Below, in pieces: positions 7,266-53,814 of a stretch of 64,000 nucleotides of DNA (positions are counted from its first letter, which is position 1; each line of letters begins with the position of its first letter). The position numbers and the translations under genes are program-made. The notes under the pieces were generated by a model, which ran no database searches, was not told where the DNA came from, and was given only the letters and a program-made list of their open reading frames with translations. Source of the stretch: a virus (lineage: Duplodnaviria > Heunggongvirae > Uroviricota > Caudoviricetes); the IMG/VR virus record IMGVR_UViG_2675903675_000001, positions 1 to 64,000 of that record. One strand, written 5' to 3'.

Positions 7266-8351
7266 ATGAAGAAAGCACTTTACGGTTTAATATCCGACAC
7301 TCATTACCATGTTTGGAACGCCTTCGCTTCAACATCTCATGACGGAATGAACTCACGTCTTAAAATTCAGCTTGATGCTACTTGGGAAGCCGCTGTTGCT
7401 GCTAAAAATGCAGGTGCAAAGTATCTATTCCACGCTGGTGATGTTTTCCATGTACGCGGCTCAATCGCGCCAACTGTTTTAAACAACACGTCGGATTTGT
7501 ACAACAAGATTAGAAATGAGTTAGGTTTGGAAATTTTTATTCTTGCTGGAAACCATGATCTTGAAACCAACGAATCTGTTTTATCAGCCAACGCCTCAAC
7601 CTCGTTTTCAAAAATTGGTGCAGAAATTGTTTGTTCACAAACGCCAAAAACGTTCAAGGTTGATGATGTTTGCGTTCACATGATTAGTTGGCATAGCGAC
7701 CACAAGGCATTACTGAATACAGTAAAAGAGTTAGCCAAAACATTAGATCCATCAGTGCCTAATGACTTGATTATTCATACCTCAATCAACAAAGCCATTC
7801 CCGGTATGCCGGATGTTGGTATGGAAGCTGAGGAGTTTGAAGGTCTTGGTTTTCGCTACGTATTGTCAGGTCATTACCACAACCACAAAGAGGTTATACC
7901 CGGAGTTGTCTCTATCGGCGCATTGACTCATCAAAATTGGGGTGATGTTGGTACAACGGCAGGGTATATGCTCATCAACGAAGACGGCTCGTATTCGCAA
8001 CATGAAACCAAATCCCCTAAATTTTTGGAGCTGGATGCTGATCTGGACGCTGAAAAAGTCAAAGGTAACTATGTCCGTATCAGTGCAGTAATCAAAAACG
8101 ACGAAGACGGTAAAAAGCTCGAAGAATTAGCGAAGCTGTGGGGTGCTAAAGGCGTTGCGCGAAACTTCACGAAAGAATCATCATTGGTTGGTGCGACAGC
8201 AGCAACGGCTGGGACGGCGAAGATTGACGGCTTGAAAGAGTCGGTCGGCAACTATTGTGTGTTGCTTGGCAAGTCGAGCAGCGATATTGACGTGTCGAAG
8301 TTAACCGGTATTTGTAACGATATTATGTCTCAAGCGGAAGGTGCTGAATAA
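7266..8351 (+). CDS. sbcD: SbcD/Mre11-family recombination nuclease (T4 gp47-like)
   Basis: Calcineurin-like phosphoesterase motifs in order: 'ISDTHYH', 'AGDVFH', 'LAGNHD', 'SGHYHNH'; stop overlaps the start of the SbcC-like gene. Confidence 0.8.
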   Translation: MKKALYGLISDTHYHVWNAFASTSHDGMNSRLKIQLDATWEAAVAAKNAGAKYLFHAGDVFHVRGSIAPTVLNNTSDLYNKIRNELGLEIFILAGNHDLETNESVLSANASTSFSKIGAEIVCSQTPKTFKVDDVCVHMISWHSDHKALLNTVKELAKTLDPSVPNDLIIHTSINKAIPGMPDVGMEAEEFEGLGFRYVLSGHYHNHKEVIPGVVSIGALTHQNWGDVGTTAGYMLINEDGSYSQHETKSPKFLELDADLDAEKVKGNYVRISAVIKNDEDGKKLEELAKLWGAKGVARNFTKESSLVGATAATAGTAKIDGLKESVGNYCVLLGKSSSDIDVSKLTGICNDIMSQAEGAE

Positions 8352-10270
8352 TGAAATTTATTAACATGACGATCGAAAACTTTATGCGTATTGCCGAAGC
8401 TAAGGTTGAGCTTAATGATCGTGGTTTGATTTTAATTCAAGGTAAGAACACTGACGATACTTCCGCTGATAGTAACGGTTCTGGTAAATCAACGCTAATG
8501 AACGCCTTGTGCTGGGCTATCTACGGCGAAACTGCCAACGGCATGAAGTCCGATGATGTTCTCAGTACAGGGTTTGAGAAAAACTGTCGTGTTATGGTTA
8601 TTGTCGAAGATGAAGACGGTAAGCGATACTCAATCATGCGTCATCGCGCTCACGTCGCCAACAAGAACCGTCTTATGATTTCAAACGAAGATGGGGATCT
8701 AACTAAAGGCACTGACAGACTCACCCAAGAATTTATCGAGAAGCTTATCGGCGCGTCAAAAGAAGTCTTTTTGGCATCCATATACGCAAGCCAAGAAAAC
8801 ATGCCCGATCTACCCGGCATGACAGACAAAAACTTAAAAGCGATTGTAGAAGAAGCGGCTGGTGTAAATCGTCTGACTCTTTCTTATGAGATTTCTCGTG
8901 ACCGTCACAATGCGAAGTTGGCTGAATTAGGGGGTGTAGAAGGTAAAATCACAATCGCGGATCGTGCTTTTATTAGCGCACTCGAAACATCGGAAGAAAC
9001 AGAGTCATCAGCCGTAAAGTGGGAGTCGCAACGAAAAGAACGTATAGAGGAAGCTAAAAAGAGTATCAACTATGCCGAAATCACACTTACTGAACTCTCT
9101 TTTGCAAATAAAGATTTGGAAAGTGCCGCCAACATTGATGAAAAAATAATAGCGATTCGAGCCGAAATATCTAGCGTCAGTGAGCATGATAAAAAAATTG
9201 AAACTATCAGAAAAGGTATTTCAACGGCTAACTCAAATCTTGCTGTGAAAAACAGCGACTTGACTCGATTGAAAAATCGGGCTGGTTCTGAAATGGAAAG
9301 AGCTAAAACGGTATCCGCGAAAGTTGGATCGCCATGTTCCGAATGTGGCAAGCCTTACTGCGAAGCTGACTTAGAAACCGTAAAAAACAGTCACACCTCA
9401 AAAGCAAGGGATTATTTAGTTGAGATTAAATCAACTATTCAGCCTGAAATTGAGCGTATTCAGGAAACTGTAGAAAAAGGCGAAAAAATGCTTGAGGTTT
9501 TAAAATCCTCTCGACCTAATGTTGATTCTCAAATTGAGAAAATCGCCCTTCTGCAAAAAAACAAAAGCGCTATTGAAAAATCTCTCAGCGAAGAACGTTC
9601 CGCCGATAAAGTCTACAAAGATGAGAAAAGTAAATTAAGCATAATCGAAGCTGAGAAAAACCCATTTGCCGCGCTCATTGAAAAGACAAAGAAAGAAGCC
9701 GCGCTCCTGAAAGATAATTTAAAAGATTTAAAGGAAGTTAAGAAGAAATTAGAAGATGAATGTTTTCTACTCGAGGCTGCTCGGAAAGTATTCTCACCAT
9801 CCGGTGTCCGCAGTCATATTTTGTCTAACGTAACGCCTTTCTTAAATTCAAGAACAGCGGAGTATCTCAATACATTATCTGACGGCACGATTGAAGCTGT
9901 TTGGTCTACCATGGAAACCACGAAGAAAGGTGAAGTTAGAGACAAGTTTAACATTGCGGTGTCGAAAGTGGGTGCATCTAAATCATTTGGCGGTCTGTCT
10001 GGTGGTGAGAAGCGTAAAGTTAGAATTGCAACGGCGTTGGCTTTGCAAGATCTCGTCGCTAGTCGTGCAACTAAAAACATTCAATTGTTTATTGGTGATG
10101 AAATCGACGACGCTTTAGATACAGCAGGTTTAGAGCGTTTGATGGGTATTTTGGAAGTTAAGGCTCGTGAGCGAGGCACTGTAATGATTATCTCTCACAA
10201 AGAAATGAAATCATGGTTTAGAGAGACGATAACGGTTGAATCTAAGGACGGTCGTTCTTATGTCAGCTAA
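8351..10270 (+). CDS. sbcC: SbcC/Rad50-family ATPase (T4 gp46-like)
   Basis: Walker A 'GSGKST', long central coiled-coil with zinc-hook-like 'CSECGKPYC', ABC signature 'LSGGEKRKV', Walker B 'LFIGDEID'. Confidence 0.8.
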   Translation: MKFINMTIENFMRIAEAKVELNDRGLILIQGKNTDDTSADSNGSGKSTLMNALCWAIYGETANGMKSDDVLSTGFEKNCRVMVIVEDEDGKRYSIMRHRAHVANKNRLMISNEDGDLTKGTDRLTQEFIEKLIGASKEVFLASIYASQENMPDLPGMTDKNLKAIVEEAAGVNRLTLSYEISRDRHNAKLAELGGVEGKITIADRAFISALETSEETESSAVKWESQRKERIEEAKKSINYAEITLTELSFANKDLESAANIDEKIIAIRAEISSVSEHDKKIETIRKGISTANSNLAVKNSDLTRLKNRAGSEMERAKTVSAKVGSPCSECGKPYCEADLETVKNSHTSKARDYLVEIKSTIQPEIERIQETVEKGEKMLEVLKSSRPNVDSQIEKIALLQKNKSAIEKSLSEERSADKVYKDEKSKLSIIEAEKNPFAALIEKTKKEAALLKDNLKDLKEVKKKLEDECFLLEAARKVFSPSGVRSHILSNVTPFLNSRTAEYLNTLSDGTIEAVWSTMETTKKGEVRDKFNIAVSKVGASKSFGGLSGGEKRKVRIATALALQDLVASRATKNIQLFIGDEIDDALDTAGLERLMGILEVKARERGTVMIISHKEMKSWFRETITVESKDGRSYVS

Positions 10271-11126
10271 GTTTAATTTAGCAACGGCTATTGCTTCGGC
10301 AATAGCTATCTCTGATGTGATACGTCTGTCTACCATTTACGGTGAGAGTATCGTTAAGAAAAAGGTGGATTACTCAACGGCATCCTCAAAAGATATCAAC
10401 TCAAGGATATTGGTTGCTGCCGGAAAATTCGCAAAAGATGATATTAGCGGTGGCTTTGTTATTTCGGCGAAGCAGTGGGCGAAAGACAAAAGCAGACTAG
10501 CTAACATTTTGACCGAAGAGAATATTGCTAGAATCGACGCTTGGTTATCTTTGCAAATGTTGGAAGGCATAGAGGAAGAGTTTTTATCAATTAGTGTGGT
10601 GCGTATTCACACGAACCTTAAAGGTAAAAGTGACTACATCGTCATGCCTTTTATCAAAGCTGAAAAAGACTTTGCTATAAAAGGCGATCGAATTGTTCTG
10701 TACTGTGAAATTAATCATTTAGATTTAGCGGCAGCGTTACAGTTATCGACAACTTACCATGCGGAATTGGAAAAGCTCGTCAGTGGCATTATGGCGCTAG
10801 GTTTTACCAAAGATGAGGGTTCACACGAAAAACCATCAAAATATCGCTCAAACGACAGCACAGTTGCAATTTTCGGGTGTACGTGTGGTAACACCACGTT
10901 CAAGTTTCGTGTTGATGTTGAAAGTGAAGAAATCACAAGAGATCTCAATCGTATCGCCGCAATATCGAGTTTTTACACCGTCTCGTCAGATTTTGACACG
11001 TTGGATATAAACAACGTTGCCGATAAGACTTTGGTGAAAGAGATTATGAAAAATGAAACCGTAAAAAACGTCAGTTCGGATAGCGTTACCGTAAACGGTA
11101 ATCAGTTCTTATTTGGTTCGTTTTAA
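10259..11126 (+). CDS. hypothetical protein (289 aa)
   Basis: ATG 10259 with AAGGA RBS, overlapping the sbcC stop; no motif recognised. Confidence 0.5.
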
Positions 11127-11161
11127 ACACAAAAACACACACAATTAGGTACAAATATATT

Positions 11162-11734
11162 ATGAGTAAAATTATTAAAGTGGCTGGCGTTGATCCTTCA
11201 ATGTCGAATTTCGGAATTGTTTTCGGTGAAATTGATATTGAAACCAACAAAGTCATTTCAATTAACCGAATGGAGTTAGCACAAACGTCATCCGGTGATA
11301 CAAAAAAATCAGTTCGAGTTAACAGCGACGACTTACGCCGAGCGAGTGAAATATGGAAAAAAGCCAAACCCATTATACAACAGGCTCAATTGGTTTTTTG
11401 CGAGCTTCCGGTCGGAAGTCAATCCAGTCGAGCACAAACCTCATACGGTATTTGTATTGGTGTTCTGGCTTGTATCGATAAACCGTTAATCCAAGTAACA
11501 CCAATCGAAATCAAAAAATTTGTTGCTGGTAAAAAAACAACCTCGAAAGAAGAAATTATTGAATGGGCGACCAGTAAGCATCCAGAAGCACCTTGGATTA
11601 CTCGAAAGGAAAAAGGTGAAATTAAGTTTGCTAATAAAAATGAACACTTAGCCGATGCCGTTGCCGCTATTTATACTGGAATGGAAACCGATCAGTATCG
11701 CCAAATCTCCGCAGTTCTCGCCACTCTAATCTAA
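11162..11734 (+). CDS. RuvC-like Holliday-junction resolvase (phage type)
   Basis: N-terminal 'VAGVDPSMSNFGIV' (RuvC motif I Asp), central 'CELP' (catalytic Glu), C-terminal 'HLADAVAAIYTG' resembling RuvC 'DAADAxAIA'. Confidence 0.55.
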   Translation: MSKIIKVAGVDPSMSNFGIVFGEIDIETNKVISINRMELAQTSSGDTKKSVRVNSDDLRRASEIWKKAKPIIQQAQLVFCELPVGSQSSRAQTSYGICIGVLACIDKPLIQVTPIEIKKFVAGKKTTSKEEIIEWATSKHPEAPWITRKEKGEIKFANKNEHLADAVAAIYTGMETDQYRQISAVLATLI

Positions 11735-11756
11735 TCAACATATAGGTTACTTATAG

Positions 11757-11790
11757 GTCAACCACACAGCATATTGTTTTGTGTGGTTGA
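11757..11790. other. inverted repeat caaccacac(ag)...gtgtggttg (hairpin)
   Basis: 9-bp arms with a 13-nt loop; the same arm sequence recurs at 19199-19236. Confidence 0.6.
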
Positions 11791-11849
11791 TAATAGGTAT
11801 ATACTTACCTATTATAATTAACCAATAATCAATAAGGTGGATTTAACAA

Positions 11850-14147
11850 ATGACTCTACGAGTGACTAAACGTGACGGCACACTTGTACCGTTCGATGCA
11901 ACTAAATTTAATCAAGTGGCGGAATACGGAACGATTGGAATTTCCGGCGTTAGCGCATCGGCTATCGCAATGAAAGTTCATATCGGTGCTCACAATGGCG
12001 TTAAAACTACTGATATTCACGCAATGATGGTGAAAGCAGCGGCAGATTTGATATCCAAAGAATCACCAAATTATGAAAAAGTTGCTGCGCGTTTAAACAT
12101 CGGCTTAATTCACAAAGAAGCTTTTGGTCAGTATGGCTACCCTGACTTATTTACCCATATTCAAACCAACGTTGCGCGTAAAAAATATGATAATGATTTA
12201 CTGACTAAATACTCTGAGTCAGAAATTAATGAATTAGGTGAATATCTCGATCCGTCTCGTGATGAACTTTTTGGTTACGCGGCCACAATCCAGTTACGCG
12301 GCAAATATCTTGTCCAGAATCGAGTAACTGGCGAAATCTACGAAGCGCCTCAACACGTCTATATGCTTGCTGCAATGTGTTTCTTCCAAGATTGGAAACA
12401 CAAAAGTATTAGCCGAATGAAAATGGTAAAAGATTTTTATGATGCCACATCTACTTTCAAGTTATCTCTACCTACGCCTATCATGTCAGGCTTACGCACT
12501 CCGACTCGTCAATTCAGCTCATGCGTTGTTATGGAAGCCGGGGACTCACTCTCGTCTATTAACGCAACCTCAGCCGCTATCGTTAATTATGTGTCACAAC
12601 GAGCCGGTATTGGTTTTGGTTTCGGGCGTATTCGCGCTCTTGGTAGTGAAATTAGAGGCGGTGAAGCGAATCATACAGGCGTTATTCCGTTCTTAAAGCT
12701 ATTCCAAGCAGCAGTGAAGTCTTGTTCACAAGGCGGCGTTCGTGGTGGAGCAGCAACAGCGTTTTACCCAATCTGGCATCGTGAAGCTGAAAATCTTCTC
12801 GTTATCAAAAACAACCGTGGTGTTGAAGAAAACCGTGTCCGTCACCTTGATTACGGTGTGATGATTAATGGCTATTTCTACAAGCGCCTTATTGCTCAAA
12901 AGAATATCTCGTTATTCAGCCCTCATGATGTGCCTGATTTGTATGAAGCTTTCTTTGCTGATCAAGATAAATTTGCTCTTCTATACGAAGCGGCGGAAGC
13001 CAACGAGTCTATTCAACGCATTTCTGTTCCGGCTGTAGAGCTGTTTTCCTCTTTGATGCAGGAACGTGCATCAACTGGTCGTATTTATATTGCTAACGTT
13101 GATCACATCAACACTCACGGCGCATTTAAGCCAGAACTAGCCCCTGTTCGACAATCAAATCTTTGTTTGGAAATTACACTACCAACGAAGCCGCTTGAAT
13201 TTACCAACGATCCTGATGGTGAAATCGCGTTATGTACGCTTTCGGCGTTTAACTTGGGTGCAATTGAAAATTTTGCTGAGTTTGAGCATCTTTCATTCCT
13301 GATTGTCGCCGCGCTTGATTCTTTGCTTGATTACCAAAACTACCCACTATTAGCGGCTGAACGCTCTACTAAACGTCGTCGTAGCTTAGGTGTTGGCGCA
13401 ACAAACCTCGCTTATTACTTAGCGAAGAACGGTTTTAAGTATTCTGACAATTTAGGCAATCAGTTTTTGCATGACACGTTTGAAGCCATTCAGTATTTCT
13501 TACTTAAAGCCTCAAATGAATTAGCCAAAGAAGTCGGTGCTTGTGAGTTGTTCCATGAAACCCGTTATTCCGCTGGTGAGCTGCCAATCGACCACTACCG
13601 CAAGCAATTAGACAAAATGGACATTGGTGTCACAGAGCCTCTGAAAATGGATTGGGATGCGTTACGCGCTGATATTTTAACGCATGGACTCCGCAACTCT
13701 ACCCTAACAGCTTTGATGCCATGTGAAACATCAAGTCAAATTACAAACAGCACAAACGGCATCGAGCCGCCTCGTGGACCTGTCTCTGTGAAAATGAGCA
13801 AGGAAGGTGCTGTCAAAATGGTTGTTCCTGAGTATGAGCGTTTAAAAGATCAATATGAATACTTATGGGAGCTAGGCGGTAATACGGGTTATCTGACGAA
13901 AGTTGCAATCATGCAAAAATTCGTTGATCAGGCTATTTCTGCTAACACCAACTACGACCCAGAGATTTACCCAGAAGGTCGAGTTCCAATGAATCAACTA
14001 CTTCAAGATTTACTAACGGCTTACTCAACCGGAGTTAAAACGCTGTATTACCACAATACACGCGATCGCTCAGGTGAAGAAGATGACGAGGTAGAAACGA
14101 TTGTTGCACCAGGCGGTGATGATTGCGGCGACGCCTGTAAATTGTAA
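11850..14147 (+). CDS. nrdA: ribonucleoside-diphosphate reductase class Ia, alpha subunit
   Basis: 765 aa; N-terminal ATP-cone, catalytic 'NLCLEI', C-terminal Cys pair 'CGDAC' typical of NrdA. Confidence 0.9.
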   Translation: MTLRVTKRDGTLVPFDATKFNQVAEYGTIGISGVSASAIAMKVHIGAHNGVKTTDIHAMMVKAAADLISKESPNYEKVAARLNIGLIHKEAFGQYGYPDLFTHIQTNVARKKYDNDLLTKYSESEINELGEYLDPSRDELFGYAATIQLRGKYLVQNRVTGEIYEAPQHVYMLAAMCFFQDWKHKSISRMKMVKDFYDATSTFKLSLPTPIMSGLRTPTRQFSSCVVMEAGDSLSSINATSAAIVNYVSQRAGIGFGFGRIRALGSEIRGGEANHTGVIPFLKLFQAAVKSCSQGGVRGGAATAFYPIWHREAENLLVIKNNRGVEENRVRHLDYGVMINGYFYKRLIAQKNISLFSPHDVPDLYEAFFADQDKFALLYEAAEANESIQRISVPAVELFSSLMQERASTGRIYIANVDHINTHGAFKPELAPVRQSNLCLEITLPTKPLEFTNDPDGEIALCTLSAFNLGAIENFAEFEHLSFLIVAALDSLLDYQNYPLLAAERSTKRRRSLGVGATNLAYYLAKNGFKYSDNLGNQFLHDTFEAIQYFLLKASNELAKEVGACELFHETRYSAGELPIDHYRKQLDKMDIGVTEPLKMDWDALRADILTHGLRNSTLTALMPCETSSQITNSTNGIEPPRGPVSVKMSKEGAVKMVVPEYERLKDQYEYLWELGGNTGYLTKVAIMQKFVDQAISANTNYDPEIYPEGRVPMNQLLQDLLTAYSTGVKTLYYHNTRDRSGEEDDEVETIVAPGGDDCGDACKL

Positions 14148-14166
14148 TTAACCGTTTTTAAAGACA

Positions 14167-14192
14167 AAGGTGGGCTTATGCTCACCTTTTTA
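14167..14192 (+). terminator. rho-independent terminator
   Basis: aaggtgggc-ttat-gctcacctt followed by a T-run. Confidence 0.65.
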
Positions 14193-14256
14193 TTCGTCTT
14201 GAGTGCCGATTTAGTTAATCCAAAATGAACTCGATACAAATTAAAAGGAAAAATGT

Positions 14257-15378
14257 ATGTCCGGTTATTCCACATTTAGACAAACAAAAAATGACGCGAC
14301 AAAAGAACCTATGTTTTTAGGGTTGAGCGTTAATATTTCTCGTTATGATCAGCAGAAGTATCGTCTTTTTGAAAAAGCGATTGAACGCCAGTTAAGTTTC
14401 TTCTGGCGACCGGAAGAAGTTGATGTATCGAAAGATCGCATTGACTACCAAAACATGCCTGAGCATGAAAAACACATATTTATCAGTAATCTAAAATACC
14501 AAACATTATTGGATTCAGTTCAAGGTCGCGGCCCTAACATTGCTTTTTTGCCTATATGTTCTATCCCTGAGTTGGAAACTTGGATTGAAACTTGGTCATT
14601 CTCTGAGACAATTCATAGCCGCAGTTACACACATATTATTCGTAATCTGGTGAATGACCCTGATCGGATATTTGACGGCATTGTCGAAGATGACATGATT
14701 TTAGCAAGGGCAGCGGCAGTAACGGGTGAGTATGACAAGTTGATTGAAATGACAGCCTCTCGTCAATATCTTGGTCTTGAAGCTTTTAACCATGAATACG
14801 GCGAGACTGCAATTCACGATCAAATATTCAAGACTTTGGTTGCGGTTAACGCTTTAGAAGCCATTCGTTTTTATGTTAGCTTCGCTTGTACATTCGCCTT
14901 TGGTGAACGCGGTATTATGGAAGCCAACGCCAAGATCATGAAATTCATTGCGCGTGATGAGGCTTTGCACTGCCACGTTACACAAGAAATGATTAAGCTG
15001 ATGTACAGCGGTCGTGAAGGTGATTTGTGGAAGGCGATCGCGGAAAATAATCGCCAATTTATCATCGATACCATGAAAGCCGTTGCAGAGCAGGAAATGG
15101 CATGGGCCGACTATCTATTTAAAGACGGTTCCATGATTGGGTTAAACGCAGATATGTTAAAGCAGTACGTTAAACATAGAACCAACGTTTCAATGAAACG
15201 TATTGGCTTTTCTTATATTTTCCCAGAAATCACCTCTGATCCGTTACCATGGATGAATAGTTGGTTGCTTTCCGACAACGTTCAGGTAGCACCACAAGAG
15301 GCTGAGAAGTCCGACTATCTGACAGGGCAAATTGACTCAACTATCGACGCTGGTGCGTTAGCCTCGTTTGATATTTAG
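14257..15378 (+). CDS. nrdB: ribonucleoside-diphosphate reductase beta subunit
   Basis: 373 aa; ferritin-like di-iron ligands (E..H, 'EAIRFY', 'DEALH'), C-terminal acidic tail for R1 binding. Confidence 0.85.
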
Positions 15379-23728: not shown

Positions 23729-26700
23729 TCAGATTTTTCCACCGACACCTTTGAACTTTTCAATAAAATTGACGAACTTCTGGTATACCGTCTGTTTCTT
23801 GGTTTTGTATTGAGGGTTCAGTGGACTGAGTTTAGGTAATGTATCATTCAGTGCTGTGCCGTTTTCCGTGGCATATTCACGCTTGAGGGCATTTCTGATG
23901 TAGCGTCTGGTGGCGTCTTCATTCAGATTTTCCTCTTTTATTAAGGCGTCAGCCTCACGCAACTGAGCTTCTTGAGCGAACGTGTAGAATGCTTCAATAA
24001 TTCCTTCTCTATTCGTCATATCATCGAGGTTGGTCTGTTCGATAAAATCAACCATCAGCCCCTCCTTGGCTCTATTGCCGAGACTAGCACGAATCAACCG
24101 TTTCACTTCCTCTTTCACGGTGGCTTTGTCGGTATTTTTTTTGTGGTAGTCGTAAATTAGCCCCAGAATATAGTCGAGGTTAATCTCCTGAGACTTCAGC
24201 AAATCTATTTCAAAGACCACATCATCCCAGTCAACGTTCGTGCTATCCTTTTCATTGGCAGAGCGCTCACGGCGTTGCCAGTCACGAATATCGTTGTAGC
24301 TTGAGCGGTAGTCCTGAATTTTTCGCTCAGCCGGTAATCGTATGATTTGAAGTTCAGCAAATTTCTCATCATCCAGATAATGCTCGTTTTTAAATGCTTC
24401 CACAGCAACCGGATCGCTAAGATTAACGGTTTGCAGGGCTTTCAGTGAGGTAAATTCATCATAGTTTTGTAGGATACTCTCTGCTCGCAAGTACTCACCA
24501 AACAGTTTAACAAAGGCTTTCTTCTCTTTCTCCGATTCAATATCTGCTGGGTTCGGAAAGCGCGTTTCTAGCTCGGTGACGATATTCATAAAACCACGGC
24601 GAGCCTCACCCGTTACCGCATCTGTAAAACCTTCCATGTACTCTGTGTAACTTTTTTCCATCACCACACTTTTAGTATTACTTTTTCCAAACAGGGTGAT
24701 GGCATCAATGGTTGCCTGCTCTAAATCGCGGAAGGTGACAATGTTACCGAAAGTTTTCGTCGCATTGTAAATCCGGTTAGTCCGGGAAAATGCCTGCATC
24801 AATCCGTGATAACGCAGGTTTTTATCCACAAACAAGGTGTTAAGCGTCGGAGCATCAAAACCGGTCAGGAACATACCAACCACAATCAGCAGGTCAACCT
24901 CCTGCCCTTTAACCCGTTTTGCAAGGTCACGGTAGTAGTTTTGAAAGCTATTTCCGTCGGTACTGAAGTTGGTTTTAAAGCTGGCATTATAGTCGCCAAT
25001 CGCTGATTCCAGAAACTCTCGGGCGCTGCTGTTCATTGCCGTGACATCAAAGCTCTCATCATTAATATCCCCGACCGCGTCCTGCTCTTCATTGGCGGCA
25101 AAAGAGAAGATGGTGGCAACGGTCAGGGGCTTGTAGCTGCTATCTTGTTCAATGGCAGCCTGCTGGATGTGTTTAAACGCTTCGTAGTAAGCTTTTGCGG
25201 CATCAACACTGCTGACGGCAAACATGGCATTGAAGCCCGTTGCACCCGGGAAAGCGCGGTGTGTTTTTTTTCGAAAGTTTTTTAGAATGTAGTGGGTGAC
25301 TTCACTAATTCGCATGGGGTGCAGCAGAGCGTGCTTGTTTTCAGCAGCAGTGAGTTTTTTCTCATCCGTCTCAGTTTCTATTTCTTTAAATTGCGGGCGA
25401 ACATCATTGTAATCCACCTTAAACTTCAGCACTTTCTCATCACTAATGGCATCGGTGATAATGTAGGAATGCAGTTCTGCACCAAAAACGCTGGCAGTAT
25501 CTTCTGCACCTAAGGCATTTTTACCCGCAAAAATCGGCGTCCCCGTAAATCCGAACTGATAGAAACGTTTGAATTTCTTTTTCAGGTTCTTCTGAGCTTC
25601 ACCAAACTGACTGCGGTGACACTCATCGAAAATAAAAACAACTTGTTGCTGATATACCGGTAAATCAGCTTCTGCTTTTATCAGGTTGTTCAGTTTTTGA
25701 ATAGTAGTGACAATAATTTTGTTATCATCTTTTTCTAAATTACGTTTCAGCCCTGCCGTGCTATCAGAGCCATTCACGCTATCAGGGGAAAAGCGCTGAT
25801 ACTCTTTCATGGTCTGGTAATCGAGGTCTTTACGGTCAACCACGAAGAACACTTTATCTATGAAATCCAGTTCGGTCGCCAATCGTGCCGCTTTAAAGCT
25901 GGTCAGAGTCTTTCCTGAACCTGTGGTGTGCCAAATAAAGCCACCACTTTCTTTGCTGCTCCAGTTTTTGGCGTGGTAGGTACTGTTAATTTTCCACAAA
26001 ATACGCTCAGTAGCGGCTATCTGGTAAGGACGCATAATCAGCAGGTTATTACTGATATCAAAGACAGAATAATTGAACAAAATGTTCAGTAGAGTATTTT
26101 TTTGGAAGAATGTCGCCGTGAAATCTTTTAGGTCTTTAATTAGCGTATTGTCAGACCTAGCCCAATTCATGGTGAAATCAAAACTGTTCTTATCCCGTTT
26201 TGTGGTATTAGCAAAGTAACGGGTATCTGTGCCGTTTGAAATGATGAACACTTGCAGATATTTAAACAGAGAATTGTCGGTGTTGAAACTCTCTTTACTG
26301 TAGCGATGTATCTGGTTAAAGGCTTCTTTAATCGCGACACCACGTTTTTTAAGCTCAATTTGCACCAAGGGTAAACCGTTAACTAAGATAGTGACATCAT
26401 AACGATTAGCGTGGGTGCCCGTTTGTTCAAATTGCTGAATGACCTGCACTTTGTTACGAAGAAGATTTTTCTTATCAACAAGGTAGATATTTTCTAATCG
26501 TCCATCATCAAAAGTGAAGTCGCAGATATAATCGATATGAATTTTTCGGGTCTTATCAACAATTGAATCGCTTGGGTTATCCAAATACTGCTCAGTAAAA
26601 CGCCGCCATTCACTTTCAGTAAAAAACACTTTATTCAACGTTTGAAGCTGTGCACGTACGTTTGCTAGCATCGTGGATTGTGATGTTATATCAGGGACAA

Positions 26701-26851
26701 ACTCATACCCTTGATTACGTAAATCCTGAATCAGTTCGCATTCTAAATCTGCTTCACTTTGATAGCGGTCATTCTCATCCCACTCAGTCACGTATTTATC
26801 CAGCACAATAAAGTTATTGGATTCGGCAATGGTTTTTATTTGCTGCGTCAT
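23729..26851 (-). CDS. hsdR: Type I restriction enzyme, restriction subunit HsdR
   Basis: 1040 aa; SF2 helicase motifs '[12 protein letters not shown]' (I), '[10 protein letters not shown]' (II, DEAH-type), 'FGFTGTP' (III); size and order typical of HsdR. Confidence 0.9.
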
Positions 26852-26929
26852 ACGGCTCCCTGCTTTTTCATTCTGTTGTGCTGAATGCCGGTAAAACCGG
26901 CATAACAGACGTTATCAGGCGGTCATGTG

Positions 26930-28140
<1,211 letters not shown>

Positions 28141-28144
<4 letters not shown>

Positions 28145-29697
28145 ACCTGCACCTCGCTGCTTTCAATTTCTGCCACTATCGCATCGATATCTGTACGTAG
28201 CTGGTCAATTCTGGCAACTGTCTTTTTCAACTCAGCATTCAGTTCAGTAATGTTAACGATTTCGCGGGTGTCTTCGGCTACCACATAGCTACTGACTGAC
28301 AGGTTATAGTCATTGGCAGCTACAGCTTCAGACGTGACAGATTTTGCTAGATAGTCTGTATCTTCTTTGCTGTCGAAGACCTGCATGATTTGTGCGATTT
28401 GTTCATCCGTCAGGACGTTGTTATTGGTCTCTTTTTTGAATAAGCCGCTGGCATCAATAAACTGCACGTTCGTATCTGTTTTATGCTTTGACAGCACCAG
28501 AATATTCACGGCAATGGTTGTTCCGAAGAACAGGTTAGGCGCTAAAGAAATCACCGTTTCAACATAGTTATTATCAACCAAATATTGCCGAATTTTTTGC
28601 TCTGCACCACCACGGTAGAAAATCCCCGGAAAACAGACTATTGCCGCACGTCCCTTGGATGACAGATAATTTAGTGCATGGAGGACAAACGCAAAATCCG
28701 CTTTTGATTTTGGTGCCAACACCCCCGCTGGGGCGAAGCGATCATCATTAATCAGTGTCGGGTCATCACTGCCAATCCATTTCACCGAATAAGGTGGATT
28801 AGACACAATCGCATCAAACGGCTTGTCATCCTTAAATTCAGGTGCAAGTAAGGTGTTGCCCAGTTTAATGTTGAATTTATCGTAGTTGATGTTGTGCAGG
28901 AACATGTTCATACGCGCAAGGTTAAAGGTCGTATGATTAATCTCCTGACCAAAGAAGCCGTCTTCGATGATGTGATTATCAAAGTGTTTTTTCGCCTGAA
29001 GCAGCAGTGAACCGGAACCACAGGCAGGGTCATAGATTTTATTCACGTGAGTCTGACCGTGCATAGCCAACTGAGCAATCAGTTTTGACACATGCTGAGG
29101 TGTAAAGAACTCACCGCCTGACTTACCGGCATTGGCTGCATAATTAGAAATCAGAAACTCATACGCATCGCCGAACAGGTCTATTTGATGCTCGATAAAG
29201 TTACCGAGCTTTAATCCCTCCACGCCTTTCAGCACAGCGGCAAGCCGGATGTTTTTATCTTTGACGGTGCTTCCCAGTCGATTACTGGTGGTATCAAAAT
29301 CGGCGAACAAGCCTTTGATATCCGGTTCAGATGGGAAGCCAGACGCAGAGCTTTCAATTGCCACAAAAATACTGTTTAAATCTGCGTTTAGTCGGTCATT
29401 GGTGTTCGCTTTAGCCGCCACATTGCAAAACAGTTGACTCGGATAAATAAAATACCCTTTCGTTCTGACAGCATCTTCTTTGATATCGTTAGTGATTATA
29501 CTGTCATCAAGCGCCGCATACCGGATACTGTCATCACCGGCTTCAATGTAATTAGCGAAGTTTTCACTGATAAATCGGTAAAACAGCGCCCCAAGAACAT
29601 ATTGCTTAAAGTCCCATCCATCCACTGAACCTCGGACATCGTTAGCTATTGCCCATATCTGGCGGTGTAGTTCTGCTCGCTGTTGTAAACTTGTCAT
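28141..29697 (-). CDS. hsdM: Type I restriction-modification N6-adenine DNA methyltransferase HsdM
   Basis: 518 aa; motif I '[12 protein letters not shown]', motif IV 'NPPYSVKW'; N-terminal HsdM_N-like helical domain. Confidence 0.9.
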
Positions 29698-30293: not shown

Positions 30294-30860
30294 TCAGAAA
30301 CGGTAACCAACGCCAAGATTAAAGCCATTAATAGAATGACTGCCATTCATATCAATCTTCGTACCTTCATAGCCTAAGTTAACAGATACATTTTTGATTG
30401 GATTAATGACAATTCCCGCACCGTAAGCGAAATTGGTTTTTGTGGTAGATGCTGATTCATACTCATAATAACCTTGCTCTTTATAAGAACTTTCCACATC
30501 AGCTTTCATGCGCGCAGCACCAATTAATCCATATAAACTAACATAGTCATTAATACGATACGCAGGCCCTGCAAGTAATGAATAATATTTCAGATCTGCT
30601 TTAGCTTTTAAATAGTCACCCATGTCATTGCTTTCATGAGCAGAATCATCACCCTTCATATAAGTGAATGAACCAACAATACTGACAGGTGAATCCCACT
30701 CATAACGATACTGTAAATTTACGCCATGAATATTTTTAAAATCTTGGACTTTACTCTGAGCATAACCTATAGATACCGTTTGATTGTCAGCGTAAGCCAT
30801 ACTTCCAAACAAGCACCCTGCAACAATAATTGCTGATAAATATTTATTTTTTGTATTCAT
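30294..30860 (-). CDS. Ail/Lom/OmpX-family outer-membrane beta-barrel protein
   Basis: ATG at 30860 on the minus strand; signal peptide 'MNTKNKYLSAIIVAGCLFGSMAYA'; alternating amphipathic strands and a C-terminal 'GVGYRF' ending in Phe, typical of 8-strand OMPs of the Ail/Lom/PagC family. Confidence 0.75.
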   Translation of the reverse strand: MNTKNKYLSAIIVAGCLFGSMAYADNQTVSIGYAQSKVQDFKNIHGVNLQYRYEWDSPVSIVGSFTYMKGDDSAHESNDMGDYLKAKADLKYYSLLAGPAYRINDYVSLYGLIGAARMKADVESSYKEQGYYEYESASTTKTNFAYGAGIVINPIKNVSVNLGYEGTKIDMNGSHSINGFNLGVGYRF

Positions 30861-31359
30861 GTTTAATGTAATCCATTGATTTAAAATTAATAAAAATAAA
30901 ACAACCACTAAAAACTACTAACAATTAAGAATAAATTAAATCATTACATAATGTTATTATCAATGTATTTTTGTGATTTAGTGTAAAAAATACAAGATGT
31001 TTATTTTGTATTACTTAGTTGTTTTTGTTCTGATATAAGAATGATCTTTTTTGTTTTGGCTTAATTTTCCAAGCCGCCGTCTCAGGTTTAATCTCTAAGA
31101 GACAATGAACGCGATAAACTAGTTTATGTTTAAAGGGGGAGCCTTGGAATATTAGTCGGAAATAGAATTCCCAGAAACTTGACTGAAGTGAGTCAAAAAC
31201 TGCTCCTTACTTAAAGAAACTGGCATTGTTTTTTCTTATAAAAACTAACGTTTTGACGATTGAAATAAATACCTTTATTTGCTTATTGTCAGCCTTTTTT
31301 TACATGTGAAAATAAAATCAATAAGAAATTGATATTAATTACATGATGAGGTTAACAAT

Positions 31360-51776: not shown

Positions 51777-52661
51777 ATGCCATTACTGCGTGACGAAGCT
51801 GAAAAGCTATCGAACAACACCTTAGAGCAAGGTGTTATCGAAACCATCATTGACCGCGAAGATTTATTCGCCGTTCTCCCGTTCATGAAAGTGGACTCTA
51901 AAGCTTACCTTTATAACCGTGAAGCTGAGTTGAGCGAAGCTGCGTTTATCGATGTGAATGACGTTGTTCCTGAAGGAGCGGCTAAGTTCACAGAGCATGT
52001 TGCTAAGCTGCGTATCTTGGCAGGTGATGTTGATGTGGATAAATTCCTCGCAACGACCATGGCAGATACCAATAGCCAGTTGGCGATTCAGATCCGCTCT
52101 AAAGTAAAAGGTCTTGCTCGTGCTTTCCGTCGCAACCTGATTTTAGGTGACTCAACCACTAACGCGAAAACGTTTGACGGTATTCCTAAGCTTCTTCACA
52201 AAGACCAGAAAATTATCGCCGATAGTGCAATGACCTTCTCAATGCTGGATGAGTTGGTGGATGCTGTTAAAGATTTAGGCGCTGACGCAATCATGATGCG
52301 TTCTGAGCATATTCGTGCTTACCGCGCATTGCTACGTACTGTCAATGTCGGTCCTACCGAAATCATGATCGAAAACTTCGGTCGCCCAATGCTGACGCAT
52401 AACGGTATTCCATTCATCGTCAATGACTTCATCCCTACTGTTGGTGATACGAAGGCGAAGAAGGCGGATATCTACTGTCTGCATATGAGCGAAGAAAACG
52501 GTCTGACGGGTCTGTATGGCGGCGAAAGCGCAGGTATTGTTGTTGAAGATATTGGCACAGTCCAAAACAAAGATTCAACCCGTACTCGTGTTAAATGGTA
52601 CTGCTCTTTGGCTAACAAGCATGACAAAGCACTAGCCGCTCTAACAGGCGTTGCTATCTAA
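51777..52661 (+). CDS. major capsid protein
   Basis: 294 aa following the scaffold gene; strong RBS 'aagggaatttacgATG'; position and size fit the lambda gpE position. Confidence 0.65.
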   Translation: MPLLRDEAEKLSNNTLEQGVIETIIDREDLFAVLPFMKVDSKAYLYNREAELSEAAFIDVNDVVPEGAAKFTEHVAKLRILAGDVDVDKFLATTMADTNSQLAIQIRSKVKGLARAFRRNLILGDSTTNAKTFDGIPKLLHKDQKIIADSAMTFSMLDELVDAVKDLGADAIMMRSEHIRAYRALLRTVNVGPTEIMIENFGRPMLTHNGIPFIVNDFIPTVGDTKAKKADIYCLHMSEENGLTGLYGGESAGIVVEDIGTVQNKDSTRTRVKWYCSLANKHDKALAALTGVAI

Positions 52662-52729
52662 GTTGGTGTTAAGCAGGACAATTTGGGGTGAGGCGTAAGC
52701 CCACCCCTTTTTATTTTCAGAGAGGTTAT

Positions 52730-52996
52730 ATGAATTTTGGTGAAGCGTTGGAAGCTGCGAAAGTAGGTTGTCGTATAGCGCGATTAGGTTGGAACGGAAA
52801 AAATCAATTTGTAATAAAAGCTGGTGGTTATACGGTTGCCGAAGCCCGTCCGGGTAGTGATTACGCAAAGGCTGGAATTGAGGGTGAGTTTAACATATCA
52901 CCACACCTTGATTTAAAAAATGCTCAAGGAGATATGCAGCCGGGTTGGGTTCCTTCTCAGGGTGATTTGTTTGCTGACGATTGGGTGATTTTATAA
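52730..52996 (+). CDS. DUF2829-like small protein (candidate Tad2-like anti-Thoeris sponge)
   Basis: ATG 52730 with GAGG RBS; N-terminal 'MNFGEALEAAKVGCRIARLGWNGKNQFV' matches, from memory, the DUF2829 signature (M-F-x-EAL-x-x-K-x-G-x-x-V-x-R-x-GWNG). Confidence 0.45.
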   Translation: MNFGEALEAAKVGCRIARLGWNGKNQFVIKAGGYTVAEARPGSDYAKAGIEGEFNISPHLDLKNAQGDMQPGWVPSQGDLFADDWVIL

Positions 52997-53057
52997 TTTC
53001 GCCAAAGTTTAAAACGATGGCTGTCTAGGTGATTTGTTAAAAATTTAGTGAGGTTGT

Positions 53058-53321
53058 ATGGCTAGTAAGAAAGTAAAGATCACTGAAAGCTCGATGCGCG
53101 GTTACACAGGTCATTTATTCATGACCGAATTTGAAGATGGTGTTTCGATTTCACCGCTGCCAAAGCGGAAACTTGAGAAAATTTTATCAACGGTGAGATC
53201 GAGCGTTGTTGAGAAGCCTAAGCCTCCTGTTGTTGAGAAGCCTAAGCCTCCTGTTGTTGAGAAGCCTAAGCCTCCTGTTGTTGAGAAGCCTCCTGTTGTT
53301 GAAGAAGATTTAGAGTCTTAA
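53058..53321 (+). CDS. small head-associated protein with 4x 'VEKPKPPV' repeats
   Basis: 87 aa; 24-bp DNA tandem repeats at 53205-53300; the N-terminal 45 aa are paralogous to the next gene. Confidence 0.55.
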   Translation: MASKKVKITESSMRGYTGHLFMTEFEDGVSISPLPKRKLEKILSTVRSSVVEKPKPPVVEKPKPPVVEKPKPPVVEKPPVVEEDLES

Positions 53322-53373: not shown

Positions 53374-53814
53374 ATGAAACCTGCAAAAATTAAATTACTT
53401 GAATCCGCTTTTGCATCTTACACAGGCTATATGTCTGGTGTTGAATTTAAAAATGGCGAAAGCATCGGTGAAGTGCCTTTTGTCGATCAGCAGCGTATTT
53501 GCTCTATCATGAAAGCACAAACAATTGAAGGTGTTAACGTAAGTGGCGCGTCAGCTTTGGCGATGTCGCGAGAATTAACATCTTTCTCCGCCTTAGAAAA
53601 TGAGAAAAAAGCTGATTTGGTTATCGACTCACCTCGCGGTGAAGATGGTGGCGGTAGCAATGATGAAATTATTCGATTTACTCGCGCTGAATTAGAAGCG
53701 GTCGCTGACGATGGTGGCATTGCTGGTTTACGTGACATCGGTAACAGATTTGATGTCAAAGCTACTTCGATTGAAAAAATGATCGATGCTATTTTGGCGG
53801 TTGCGGGGGAATAA
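53374..53814 (+). CDS. head-associated protein, paralog of the preceding gene (146 aa)
   Basis: N-terminal 'KIKLLESAFASYTGYMSGVEFKNGESIG' aligns with 'KVKITESSMRGYTGHLFMTEFEDGVSIS' of the 53058 protein. Confidence 0.55.
   Translation: MKPAKIKLLESAFASYTGYMSGVEFKNGESIGEVPFVDQQRICSIMKAQTIEGVNVSGASALAMSRELTSFSALENEKKADLVIDSPRGEDGGGSNDEIIRFTRAELEAVADDGGIAGLRDIGNRFDVKATSIEKMIDAILAVAGE

What the first reader, a model, noticed from the sequence alone, without database searches (positions are those of the whole stretch)
52730..52996. DUF2829/Tad2-like small protein encoded between the major capsid gene and the head-completion genes
The N-terminus 'MNFGEALEAAKVGCRIARLGWNGKNQFV' matches my recollection of the DUF2829 signature. 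That family includes Tad2, a phage sponge that sequesters the gcADPR signal of the Thoeris defence system. The gene has its own RBS and sits as a moron in the late structural operon. It would be an anti-defence gene expressed with virion genes.
Basis: partly seen in the sequence, partly recalled or inferred. Interest (0 to 1): 0.6.

Follow-up and report, generated by a model that had tools for sequence, protein, structure and literature searches.

The report
Tad2-like immune-signal sponge gene
A small gene sitting right after the capsid gene of a Moellerella phage-plasmid is a genuine member of the known Tad2 family of phage proteins that soak up bacterial alarm molecules, so it is a correct but fairly ordinary finding.

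Summary
The ORF at 52730-52996 (+, 88 aa) is real. It matches Pfam PF11195 (Tad2-like/DUF2829) over its full length (E 2.5e-23, 82.8 bits against a cut-off of 25). It also matches the solved Tad2 proteins by sequence (1e-13 to 1e-10). By predicted fold (pLDDT 95.7), all 24 significant PDB hits are Tad2-family chains, with TM up to 0.83.

The ribose/phosphate-contacting pocket residues of SPO1 Tad2 are kept: W25/N26/W73/S76/D79 correspond to W21/N22/W73/S76/D79. The adenine-side residues differ (T78 to G, T65 to N, D67 to Q, H71 to Q), so ligand specificity cannot be read from the sequence.

The window is an SSU5-like phage-plasmid of Moellerella wisconsensis. Two plasmids that are 98% identical lack the gene. 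It lies in a cassette whose flanking repeat copies start 328 bp apart (a 324-bp gap in the alignment). The cassette sits between the capsid-gene terminator and the next gene's start codon, has no promoter or terminator of its own, and is bounded by a duplicated ribosome-binding/start motif. Close homologues are under strong purifying selection and mostly sit in late or head modules of unrelated phages.

This is a new member of a known kind, and its function is inferred, not tested.

The parts
52730..52996 (+). tad2-like gene (88 aa, Pfam PF11195 Tad2-like/DUF2829)
   Evidence: Pfam E 2.5e-23 over the full length. PDB sequence hits SptTad2 1.2e-13, ModTad2 2e-12, SPO1 Tad2 1.1e-10. AF2 pLDDT 95.7. 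All 24 Foldseek hits with E<=0.001 are Tad2-family chains.
52720..52725 (+). Shine-Dalgarno GAGAGG, 4 nt upstream of the ATG. The matching motif in plasmids that lack the cassette serves the downstream gene.
   Evidence: Sequence; alignment A1; empty site read.
52685..52717 (+). Intrinsic-terminator-like hairpin (GGGGTG-A-GGC GTAA GCC CACCCC) followed by TTTTTATTTT, immediately after the capsid gene. It is native to the element and not part of the cassette.
   Evidence: RNA fold. Conserved in all four related elements, including those without tad2. The simple terminator scan missed it.
52716..52732 (+). Left copy of the 17-nt imperfect direct repeat (TTCAGAGAGGTTATATG) bounding the cassette
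   Evidence: the repeat finder family D2, 14 of 17 identical, spacing 328 nt.
53044..53060 (+). Right copy of the repeat (TTTAGTGAGGTTGTATG). It supplies the SD and ATG of the downstream phrog_916 gene.
52728..53051 (+). Stretch absent from Moellerella plasmids pW1-b and pW18-2-b (a 324-bp gap as placed by the aligner; the boundaries are ambiguous within the repeat)
   Evidence: Alignment A1; annotated regions.
51777..52661 (+). Major capsid protein gene immediately upstream
   Evidence: phrog_212 E 5e-100; 83.7% identical to the SSU5 major capsid protein.
53058..53321 (+). Downstream gene (87 aa, phrog_916 N-terminal domain plus PKPPVVEK repeats), co-transcribed with tad2

Best explanation
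The gene encodes a Tad2-family 'sponge'. By analogy with the solved family members, four copies of this small protein would assemble into a tetramer whose inter-subunit pockets bind and sequester a nucleotide-derived alarm molecule made by a host defence system. The most likely ligand is a TIR-made ADP-ribose derivative such as 3'cADPR (1''-3' gcADPR) of type I Thoeris. Sequestering it would keep the effector from being switched on and let the phage complete its cycle.

In this SSU5-like phage-plasmid the gene is a recently acquired accessory cassette placed between the capsid-gene terminator and the next head gene. It would therefore be transcribed only by read-through of the late operon, during lytic growth and together with the capsid protein.

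Shown here: family membership, fold, conservation of the core pocket residues, accessory (present/absent) status, operon placement and purifying selection. Inferred: tetramer formation, the ligand, the timing of expression and the anti-defence effect.
For: - **Family match:** Pfam PF11195, E 2.5e-23, full length. PHROGs 1048 and 872, E 1e-25 and 8e-23.
- **Solved relatives:** sequence matches to SptTad2, ModTad2, HgmTad2 and SPO1 Tad2.
- **Fold:** AF2 model with pLDDT 95.7. The only significant PDB fold matches are 24 Tad2-family chains, with TM-score by query length 0.67-0.83.
- **Pocket residues:** mapping onto SPO1 Tad2 (10.1101/2023.05.01.538930) via one search gives W25/N26 to W21/N22, with W73, S76 and D79 retained. 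W21, N22, G23, W73 and D79 are invariant across 63 homologues.
- **Purifying selection:** dN 0.12-0.24 against saturated dS (omega 0.05-0.12 in the pairs where dS could be estimated), compared with homologues 71-87% identical in protein but only 65-76% in DNA.
- **Accessory status:** present in three Moellerella elements and absent from two that are 98% identical.
- **Anti-signalling company in homologues:** Acb4 (PF13876) is the upstream neighbour in 2 loci and Acb3 in 1. An 80%-identical homologue is fused to PF21825/Sequestin (PMC12265669).
- **Rationale for late co-expression:** Thoeris TIR proteins are activated by phage major capsid proteins (PMC12578639).
Against: - No binding or infection assay could be run.
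- No member of this close subgroup is known to me to have been tested.
- The residues that contact the adenine base in SPO1 Tad2 and HgmTad2 are changed: T78/T92 to G78, T65 to N64, D67 to Q66, H71 to Q70.
- ModTad2, which has S at position 78, does not inhibit type I Thoeris (10.1101/2024.01.03.573942).
- No Thoeris, CBASS or Pycsar gene was seen among the 43 proteins of window positions 1-47968 that were scanned with PADLOC. The host's defence repertoire was not examined.
- The gene lies downstream of a strong-looking terminator and has no promoter of its own. This could limit the amount made, and a sponge must be abundant to work.
Confidence: 0.72

Rival explanations
1. It is a Tad2-family sponge, but its physiological ligand is not gcADPR. 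It could sequester His-ADPR (type II Thoeris), N7-cADPR (type IV Thoeris), a cyclic mono- or dinucleotide (Pycsar/CBASS), or a signal from an uncharacterised TIR system of Enterobacterales.
For: - Tad2 homologues inhibit CBASS, Pycsar and Thoeris types I, II and IV in various combinations (PMC12393519).
- The adenine-side pocket residues differ from SPO1 and HgmTad2, and N64, A65, Q66, P71, G72, Q77 and G78 are at least 90% conserved in the 63-sequence alignment.
- One viral contig (L026) carries a T-type 113-aa Tad2 and a G-type 89-aa Tad2 (70% identical to this one) 3 nt apart, which suggests non-redundant specificities.
Against: - The ribose/phosphate contacts (W21, N22, G23, W73, D79) are those of gcADPR binders.
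- Position 78 is simply variable in the family: G 35, S 18, T 11 and A 12 of 76 distinct sequences. An 81%-identical homologue has S there, so it is not a clean specificity marker.
- The region between beta2 and beta5 is about 25 residues, against about 39 in HgmTad2, and N85 of the cGG pocket is P71 here. HgmTad2-type dinucleotide binding is therefore unlikely (PMC10680739).
Confidence: 0.2
2. It is an AcrIIA7-like anti-CRISPR that inhibits Cas9.
For: AcrIIA7 chains (8kbi, 9kzr) share the DUF2829 domain and match the query (E 5e-11 and 3e-9).
Against: The match to AcrIIA7 covers only the N- and C-terminal segments. HgmTad2/AcrIIA7 showed no anti-Cas9 activity when re-tested in vitro and in vivo (PMC10680739).
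Confidence: 0.02
3. It is a virion or assembly accessory protein (for example a head decoration or completion factor), or it has some other function unrelated to defence. Its position after the capsid gene would then reflect a structural role.
For: The slot after the capsid gene holds an Ig-domain structural protein in SSU5. About a quarter to a third of the 70 family members sampled have a head-module gene as upstream neighbour.
Against: The gene is dispensable: nearly identical phage-plasmids lack it. Close homologues occur next to four unrelated capsid types and also after lysis genes and in an early operon. Every characterised relative is a soluble small-molecule sponge.
Confidence: 0.04
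4. It is an unexpressed or decaying passenger with no current function.
For: No promoter of its own was found, and it lies behind a terminator.
Against: The ORF is intact and has a Shine-Dalgarno sequence. The protein sequence is identical in three assemblies, where the only coding difference seen is synonymous (GAC/GAT). Purifying selection is strong across the subgroup.
Confidence: 0.02

Closest known systems
SPO1 Tad2 (gp34.65; PDB 8SME/8SMF/8SMG), founding member, sequesters 1''-3' and 1''-2' gcADPR
   Same: Same Pfam domain and nearly the same length (88 vs 89 aa). Same fold (TM 0.67-0.74). Same short beta2-beta5 region. W25/N26/W73/S76/D79 are conserved.
   Different: Only 33-39% identity in the Foldseek alignments. 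The adenine contacts T78, T65, I63 and the water-coordinating D67 and H71 are replaced by G78, N64, L62, Q66 and Q70. The host is a Gram-negative Morganellaceae species, and the element is a temperate phage-plasmid rather than a lytic myovirus.
ModTad2 (Myroides odoratus prophage; PDB 8V3E/9EIB), sequesters His-ADPR and cUMP/cCMP, not type I Thoeris
   Same: Best fold match by E-value (8.4e-08, TM 0.80, 38% identity). Same size. Small residue (S) at position 78.
   Different: The motif before W73 differs (TVDNDIA-TW vs NAQGDMQPGW). No evidence of the second pocket here.
HgmTad2 / AcrIIA7 and SptTad2 (PDB 8KBI-8KBM, 8WJD), bind gcADPR plus cGG/cGAMP
   Same: SptTad2 is the best sequence match (1.2e-13). 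W21/N22 numbering is identical to HgmTad2. S90/D93 correspond to S76/D79.
   Different: It lacks the 35-41-residue insertion that forms the dinucleotide pocket. N85 becomes P71 and T92 becomes G78.
Tad2 genes of P1/D6-group phage-plasmids and the 173-aa DUF2829 protein of Klebsiella SSU5-like plasmids
   Same: Tad2-family genes carried by phage-plasmids of Enterobacterales (10.1101/2025.09.12.675607).
   Different: Only 39-42% identical. The Klebsiella gene is a two-domain T-type protein next to phoH/ligase in the early/metabolic region, not in the head operon. A survey of 1,227 SSU5-group contigs from E. coli, Shigella and Salmonella reported only the Rad anti-retron system, and no anti-defence system at all in S. 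enterica.
Close homologues (71-87% identity) in Yersinia, Pectobacterium and Klebsiella prophages and in coliphages IME_EC2, sortsyn, EK010 and Bas86-88
   Same: Same subgroup with the NAQG-MQPGW-PSQ(G/S)D motif. Mostly placed in late or head modules.
   Different: Carried by unrelated virion types (P22-like, T7-like podovirus, other siphoviruses, Murrayvirus). None is known to me to have been tested experimentally.

Membership tests
Tad2 / DUF2829 (Pfam PF11195) | Sequence matches the family profile above the curated threshold over the whole domain | tested here: met
   82.8 bits against a cut-off of 25, E 2.5e-23, profile positions 1-73 of 73.
Tad2 / DUF2829 (Pfam PF11195) | [quoted passage not shown] | tested here: met
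   AF2 model with pLDDT 95.7: helix 3-11, then strands, then short helices 44-47 and 77-81. The only significant Foldseek PDB hits are Tad2-family chains, TM up to 0.83.
Tad2 / DUF2829 (Pfam PF11195) | Core ligand-pocket residues (SPO1 W25, N26, W73, D79; HgmTad2 W21, N22, S90, D93) | tested here: met
   W21, N22, W73, S76 and D79 are present. W21, N22, G23, W73 and D79 are invariant in 63 homologues.
Tad2 / DUF2829 (Pfam PF11195) | Adenine-contacting residues of gcADPR binders (SPO1 T78, T65, I63; HgmTad2 T92) | tested here: inconclusive
   They are G78, N64 and L62 here. Position 78 is variable across the family (G/S/T/A), so its bearing on ligand choice is unknown.
Tad2 / DUF2829 (Pfam PF11195) | Homotetramer with pockets at protomer interfaces | not testable with these tools
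   Only monomer prediction was available.
Tad2 / DUF2829 (Pfam PF11195) | Binds and sequesters a TIR- or cGAS-type immune signal and rescues phage from the defence system | not testable with these tools
   This needs biochemistry and plaque assays.
HgmTad2-type dual sponge (gcADPR plus cyclic dinucleotide) | Insertion of 35-41 residues between beta2 and beta5 forming the dinucleotide pocket (R31, S47, F70, N85) | tested here: not met
   The region is about 25 residues (30-54) against about 39 in HgmTad2. It does not align, and N85 corresponds to P71 (PMC10680739).
Moron (autonomous accessory gene in a phage late operon) | Present in some and absent from other closely related genomes at the same site | tested here: met
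   A 324-bp gap relative to pW1-b and pW18-2-b, which are 98% identical in the flanks.
Moron (autonomous accessory gene in a phage late operon) | Own promoter and terminator allowing expression independent of the operon | tested here: not met
   No sigma-70-like site between 52046 and 54000 and no terminator after the gene. The consensus scan is crude, so weak or non-canonical promoters are not excluded.
SSU5-like phage-plasmid (the carrier element) | SSU5-type virion genes plus plasmid replication and partition genes on a circular replicon of about 100-110 kb | tested here: met
   Capsid protein 84% identical to SSU5. The identical tad2 protein lies on the 108-kb plasmid CP129024, and the 98% identical flanking region lies on the complete circular plasmids pW1-b and pW18-2-b (103-108 kb). 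Rep3_N initiator and ParB_N proteins are present in the window.

The most novel reading that the evidence does not exclude
This protein may represent a distinct, mostly late-expressed Tad2 subgroup. Its motif is NAQG-x-MQPGW-x-PSQ(G/S)D, and the threonine that reads the adenine base in the characterised gcADPR binders is missing. Its genes have repeatedly been inserted next to capsid genes of unrelated phages: SSU5-type, P22 coat, phrog_247-type and T7-like. The placement could couple production of the sponge to production of the capsid protein, which is what triggers TIR sensors. The altered pocket could bind a signal other than 3'cADPR, possibly from a TIR system of Enterobacterales that has not yet been characterised.
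Probability: 0.2. Interest if true: 0.55.

Novelty: new member of a known kind. Interest (0 to 1): 0.3.

Why it matters
It adds an anti-defence cargo gene to SSU5-group phage-plasmids, a group in which a large survey of clinical Enterobacteriaceae reported only the Rad anti-retron system. It also supplies natural near-isogenic elements with and without the cassette, which would make a clean test system. The recurrent placement of this subgroup beside capsid genes fits the finding that Thoeris TIR proteins sense capsid proteins. It suggests that sponge genes of temperate elements may be kept in late operons so that the host's immunity is not disarmed during lysogeny. None of this changes the basic picture: Tad2 sponges are well known and widespread, with 3,308 cluster representatives matching this protein.

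Tried and rejected
- **Whole structural region against phage genomes:** a megablast search found nothing. The element was identified instead through the exact protein, the plasmid collection and a capsid tblastn.
- **Terminator scan:** the built-in scan missed the hairpin after the capsid gene because of its bulge. Folding showed it.
- **G78 as a subgroup or specificity marker:** rejected. The position varies (G/S/T/A) across the family, and an 81%-identical homologue has S.
- **DNA donor of the cassette:** none was found among 94 loci. The best match is 76% nucleotide identity, and the 3' spacer matches only the two sister Moellerella elements. GC content of the cassette (41.5%) is the same as the surroundings.
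- **Second DUF2829 gene in the window:** none was found with the Klebsiella SSU5-like homologue as query.
- **Signalling defence systems on the element:** PADLOC found only a type I restriction-modification system.
- **NCBIfam:** it has no model for this protein.
- **Supplementary tables of the 18 tested Tad2 homologues (PMC12393519):** these are not held, so I could not check whether any belongs to this subgroup.
- **Anti-CRISPR reading:** rejected on published re-tests.

Full report
**1. The observation**

The + strand carries an ATG-initiated ORF at 52730-52996 (88 codons plus TAA). It encodes MNFGEALEAAKVGCRIARLGWNGKNQFVIKAGGYTVAEARPGSDYAKAGIEGEFNISPHLDLKNAQGDMQPGWVPSQGDLFADDWVIL. GAGAGG lies at 52720-52725, 4 nt before the ATG. 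The mechanical ORF list extends the frame back to a GTG at 52688. That start lies inside a hairpin, and all homologues, as well as the NCBI record of the identical protein, begin at MNF.

The gene upstream (51777-52661) is the major head protein (phrog_212, E 5e-100). Further upstream are the scaffold, portal and large terminase genes. Downstream are two phrog_916 proteins, phrog_912, phrog_911, a Neck1/tail-completion protein, a tail terminator and an Ig-domain protein with a weak major-tail-protein match.

**2. What the protein is**

- **Family.** Pfam gives one hit, PF11195 'Tad2-like', at E 2.5e-23 and 82.8 bits (cut-off 25), covering the whole profile. PHROGs 1048 and 872 match at 1e-25 and 8e-23.
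- **Solved relatives.** Against PDB sequences the seven significant matches are SptTad2 (1.2e-13), ModTad2 (2e-12), HgmTad2/AcrIIA7 (5e-11), SPO1 Tad2 gp34.65 (1e-10) and a second AcrIIA7 entry.
- **Fold.** An AlphaFold2 model built on 63 homologues has mean pLDDT 95.7. In a Foldseek search of the PDB, all 24 hits with E<=0.001 are Tad2-family chains (TM-score by query length 0.67-0.83). The next hit has E 0.78.
- **Family size.** The family is large: 3,308 representatives at 50% identity match at E<=0.001, and many are fusions.

**3. Pocket residues**

Yirmiya et al. (10.1101/2023.05.01.538930) list the SPO1 Tad2 contacts as follows:

- W25, W73 (van der Waals) and N26, D79 (phosphates and hydroxyls);
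- T78, I63, T65 (adenine);
- D67, H71, S76 (waters).

Li et al. (PMC10680739) show that W21A/N22A and S90A/T92A/D93A mutations abolish gcADPR binding in HgmTad2.

Using the residue-by-residue alignments, the equivalents here are W21, N22, W73, S76 and D79, all kept. In contrast T78 becomes G78, T65 becomes N64, I63 becomes L62, D67 becomes Q66 and H71 becomes Q70.

In the 63-sequence alignment, R18, W21, N22, G23, W73, D79, D84 and W85 are invariant. N64, A65, Q66, P71, G72, P75, S76, Q77 and G78 are at least 90% conserved. The ribose/phosphate side of the pocket is therefore canonical, and the base side is different.

I first took G78 for a subgroup marker. Among 76 distinct homologues from viral contigs, however, the position is G in 35, S in 18, T in 11 and A in 12, and an 81%-identical Pectobacterium homologue has S. 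It is a variable position, not a diagnostic one.

The region between beta2 and beta5 is about 25 residues, as in SPO1 Tad2. It is not the 35-41 residues that form the cyclic-dinucleotide pocket of HgmTad2 and SptTad2, and N85 of that pocket is P71 here.

Tad2 homologues have been shown to inhibit CBASS, Pycsar and Thoeris types I, II and IV in different combinations (PMC12393519). For that reason the ligand cannot be assigned from sequence.

**4. The carrier element**

The identical protein is annotated 'DUF2829 domain-containing protein [Moellerella wisconsensis]' and lies on the 108-kb plasmid CP129024 and on contig JBEGYC010000013. The capsid protein is 84% identical to that of Salmonella phage SSU5 and to Klebsiella and E. 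coli SSU5-like phage-plasmids.

The window also encodes the following:

- a Rep3-type initiator and two ParB_N proteins;
- ribonucleotide reductase, thymidylate synthase, DHFR and Dam;
- a complete type I restriction-modification system;
- an Ail/Lom outer-membrane protein.

The window is therefore part of an SSU5-like phage-plasmid.

**5. Accessory status and anatomy of the insertion**

Two complete Moellerella plasmids, pW1-b and pW18-2-b, match the 6-kb structural region at 97.7-98.2% identity but lack about 5% of it. Their annotation goes from the capsid gene straight to the small downstream gene.

The alignment shows a single clean gap of 324 bp. The empty site reads ...CCCCTTTTTATTTTCAGAGAGATTGATTCTATGGCT.... 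In the window the same terminator and CAGAGAG are followed by GTTATATG (the tad2 start), the ORF, a 61-bp spacer, and then TTTAGTGAGGTTGTATGGCT. The cassette is thus bounded by a 17-nt imperfect direct repeat (14 of 17 identical, 328 nt apart) that contains the Shine-Dalgarno sequence and the ATG.

In this arrangement tad2 uses the SD motif that, in plasmids lacking the cassette, serves the downstream gene, and the downstream gene uses the second copy.

The hairpin GGGGTG-A-GGC-GTAA-GCC-CACCCC followed by TTTTTATTTT, just after the capsid gene, is conserved with or without the cassette. No sigma-70-like promoter lies between 52046 and 54000, and there is no terminator after tad2.

The gene is therefore an in-operon accessory cassette rather than an autonomous moron. 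Its transcription should depend on read-through from the late promoter; this is inferred.

SSU5 itself has an Ig-domain structural gene in this slot and no tad2.

No DNA donor was found: the best nucleotide identity is 76%, and GC content equals that of the flanks.

**6. Selection and relatives**

Compared with homologues that are 71-87% identical in protein, DNA identity is only 65-76%. dN is 0.12-0.24 and dS is saturated (omega 0.05-0.12 in the pairs where dS could be estimated), which indicates strong purifying selection.

The close homologues sit in unrelated phages, as follows:

- directly after the P22 coat gene in a Yersinia ruckeri prophage;
- directly after a phrog_247/Gp13-like capsid gene in a siphovirus contig;
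- about 420 nt after a phrog_247 capsid gene in L021, and just before a head-tail adaptor gene in L023;
- between the gene after Bbp19 (probably the scaffold) and the capsid gene, or between portal and Bbp19, in T7-like podovirus elements;
- after lysis genes or before the small terminase gene in P22-like prophages;
- at the end of the early operon in coliphage IME_EC2.

Among 70 upstream neighbours across the wider family the counts are: 8 Mu-F and 7 minor-capsid-2 matches (these may overlap), 4 portals, 4 capsid proteins, 5 lysis proteins, 2 Acb4 and 1 Acb3. An 80%-identical homologue is fused to PF21825, which Sorek's group named Sequestin (PMC12265669).

Late or head-module placement is therefore common for the family, and especially for this subgroup. 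The gene also keeps company with other anti-signalling genes.

One contig (L026) has a long T-type and a short G-type Tad2 gene 3 nt apart. This hints that the two types are not redundant.

**7. How it most likely works**

*Shown:* this is a Tad2-family protein with the canonical core pocket. It is dispensable for the virion, under purifying selection, and placed in the late operon.

*Inferred from the solved relatives:* it forms a homotetramer whose interfaces bind an ADP-ribose-derived TIR signal and so prevent effector activation.

Late co-expression with the capsid is plausible for two reasons. Staphylococcal and streptococcal Thoeris TIR proteins are activated by major capsid proteins (PMC12578639). 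A temperate element also gains nothing from disarming its host during lysogeny. Both points are inference.

I put 0.72 on 'sponge for a TIR-type ADPR signal, most likely 3'cADPR' and 0.2 on 'sponge with another ligand'. The remainder is spread over the anti-CRISPR reading (re-tests were negative), a structural role, and an inactive gene.

**8. Comparison with what is known, and novelty**

This is a new member of a well-known, very widespread family. NCBI already labels the identical protein DUF2829.

Three points are mildly new. First, the carrier: a survey of 2,304 phage-plasmid contigs found Tad2 in 56-93% of P1/D6 elements, but in the SSU5 group it reported only the Rad anti-retron system (10.1101/2025.09.12.675607). 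Klebsiella SSU5-like plasmids carry a different, two-domain T-type homologue next to phoH. Second, there is a clean natural presence/absence pair. Third, there is the recurrent placement next to capsid genes.

Interest is modest (0.3). The most novel reading still open is a late-expressed subgroup tuned to capsid-triggered signalling, or to a different ligand. I give it a probability of 0.2 and an interest of 0.55 if true.

Noticed in passing
window 23729-29697 (- strand): A complete type I restriction-modification system is carried by the phage-plasmid: HsdR 1040 aa, HsdS 404 aa and HsdM 518 aa. It is the only defence system PADLOC found among the 43 scanned proteins of window positions 1-47968.
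   Followed up: partly
window 30294-30908 (- strand): An Ail/Lom-family outer-membrane beta-barrel protein (204 aa) lies next to the restriction-modification system. It is a typical lysogenic-conversion cargo gene.
   Followed up: no
window 53205-53307, within gene 53058-53321: A perfect 24-nt tandem repeat (3.6 copies) encodes PKPPVVEK units. The copy number differs between Moellerella strains, giving proteins of 87, 76, 71 and 65 aa. The N-terminal 50 residues are paralogous to the next gene (53374-53814); both match phrog_916, of unknown function.
   Followed up: partly
window 52685-52717: A bulged GC-rich hairpin with a GTAA loop and a T-run lies right after the capsid gene. It is conserved in relatives with and without the cassette, and the simple terminator scan missed it. 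It probably lowers expression of downstream head genes relative to the capsid protein.
   Followed up: partly
L026 3656-4270 (IMGVR_UViG_2619619259_000001): Two Tad2-family genes sit in tandem, 3 nt apart. One is a 113-aa HgmTad2-like type (WLASQTD) and the other an 89-aa type 70% identical to the window protein (WIPSQGD).
   Followed up: partly
L094 4728-5249 (Klebsiella pneumoniae plasmid CP068974): Klebsiella SSU5-like plasmids of 108-112 kb carry a different 173-aa two-domain DUF2829 protein (39% identical in the domain). It lies between phoH and a glutaredoxin gene in the early/metabolic region.
   Followed up: partly
window 8351-15378 and elsewhere within 1-47000: The window has a nucleotide-metabolism and replication set typical of SSU5-like elements: an SMC/AAA_23 ATPase, ribonucleotide reductase large and small subunits, thymidylate synthase, DHFR, Dam methylase, a Rep3-type initiator and two ParB_N proteins.
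   Followed up: partly
homologue loci L014-L093 and protein P0028: Anti-signalling genes lie beside Tad2 homologues: Acb4 (PF13876) upstream in 2 loci and Acb3 in 1. An 80%-identical homologue is fused to PF21825 (Sequestin).
   Followed up: no
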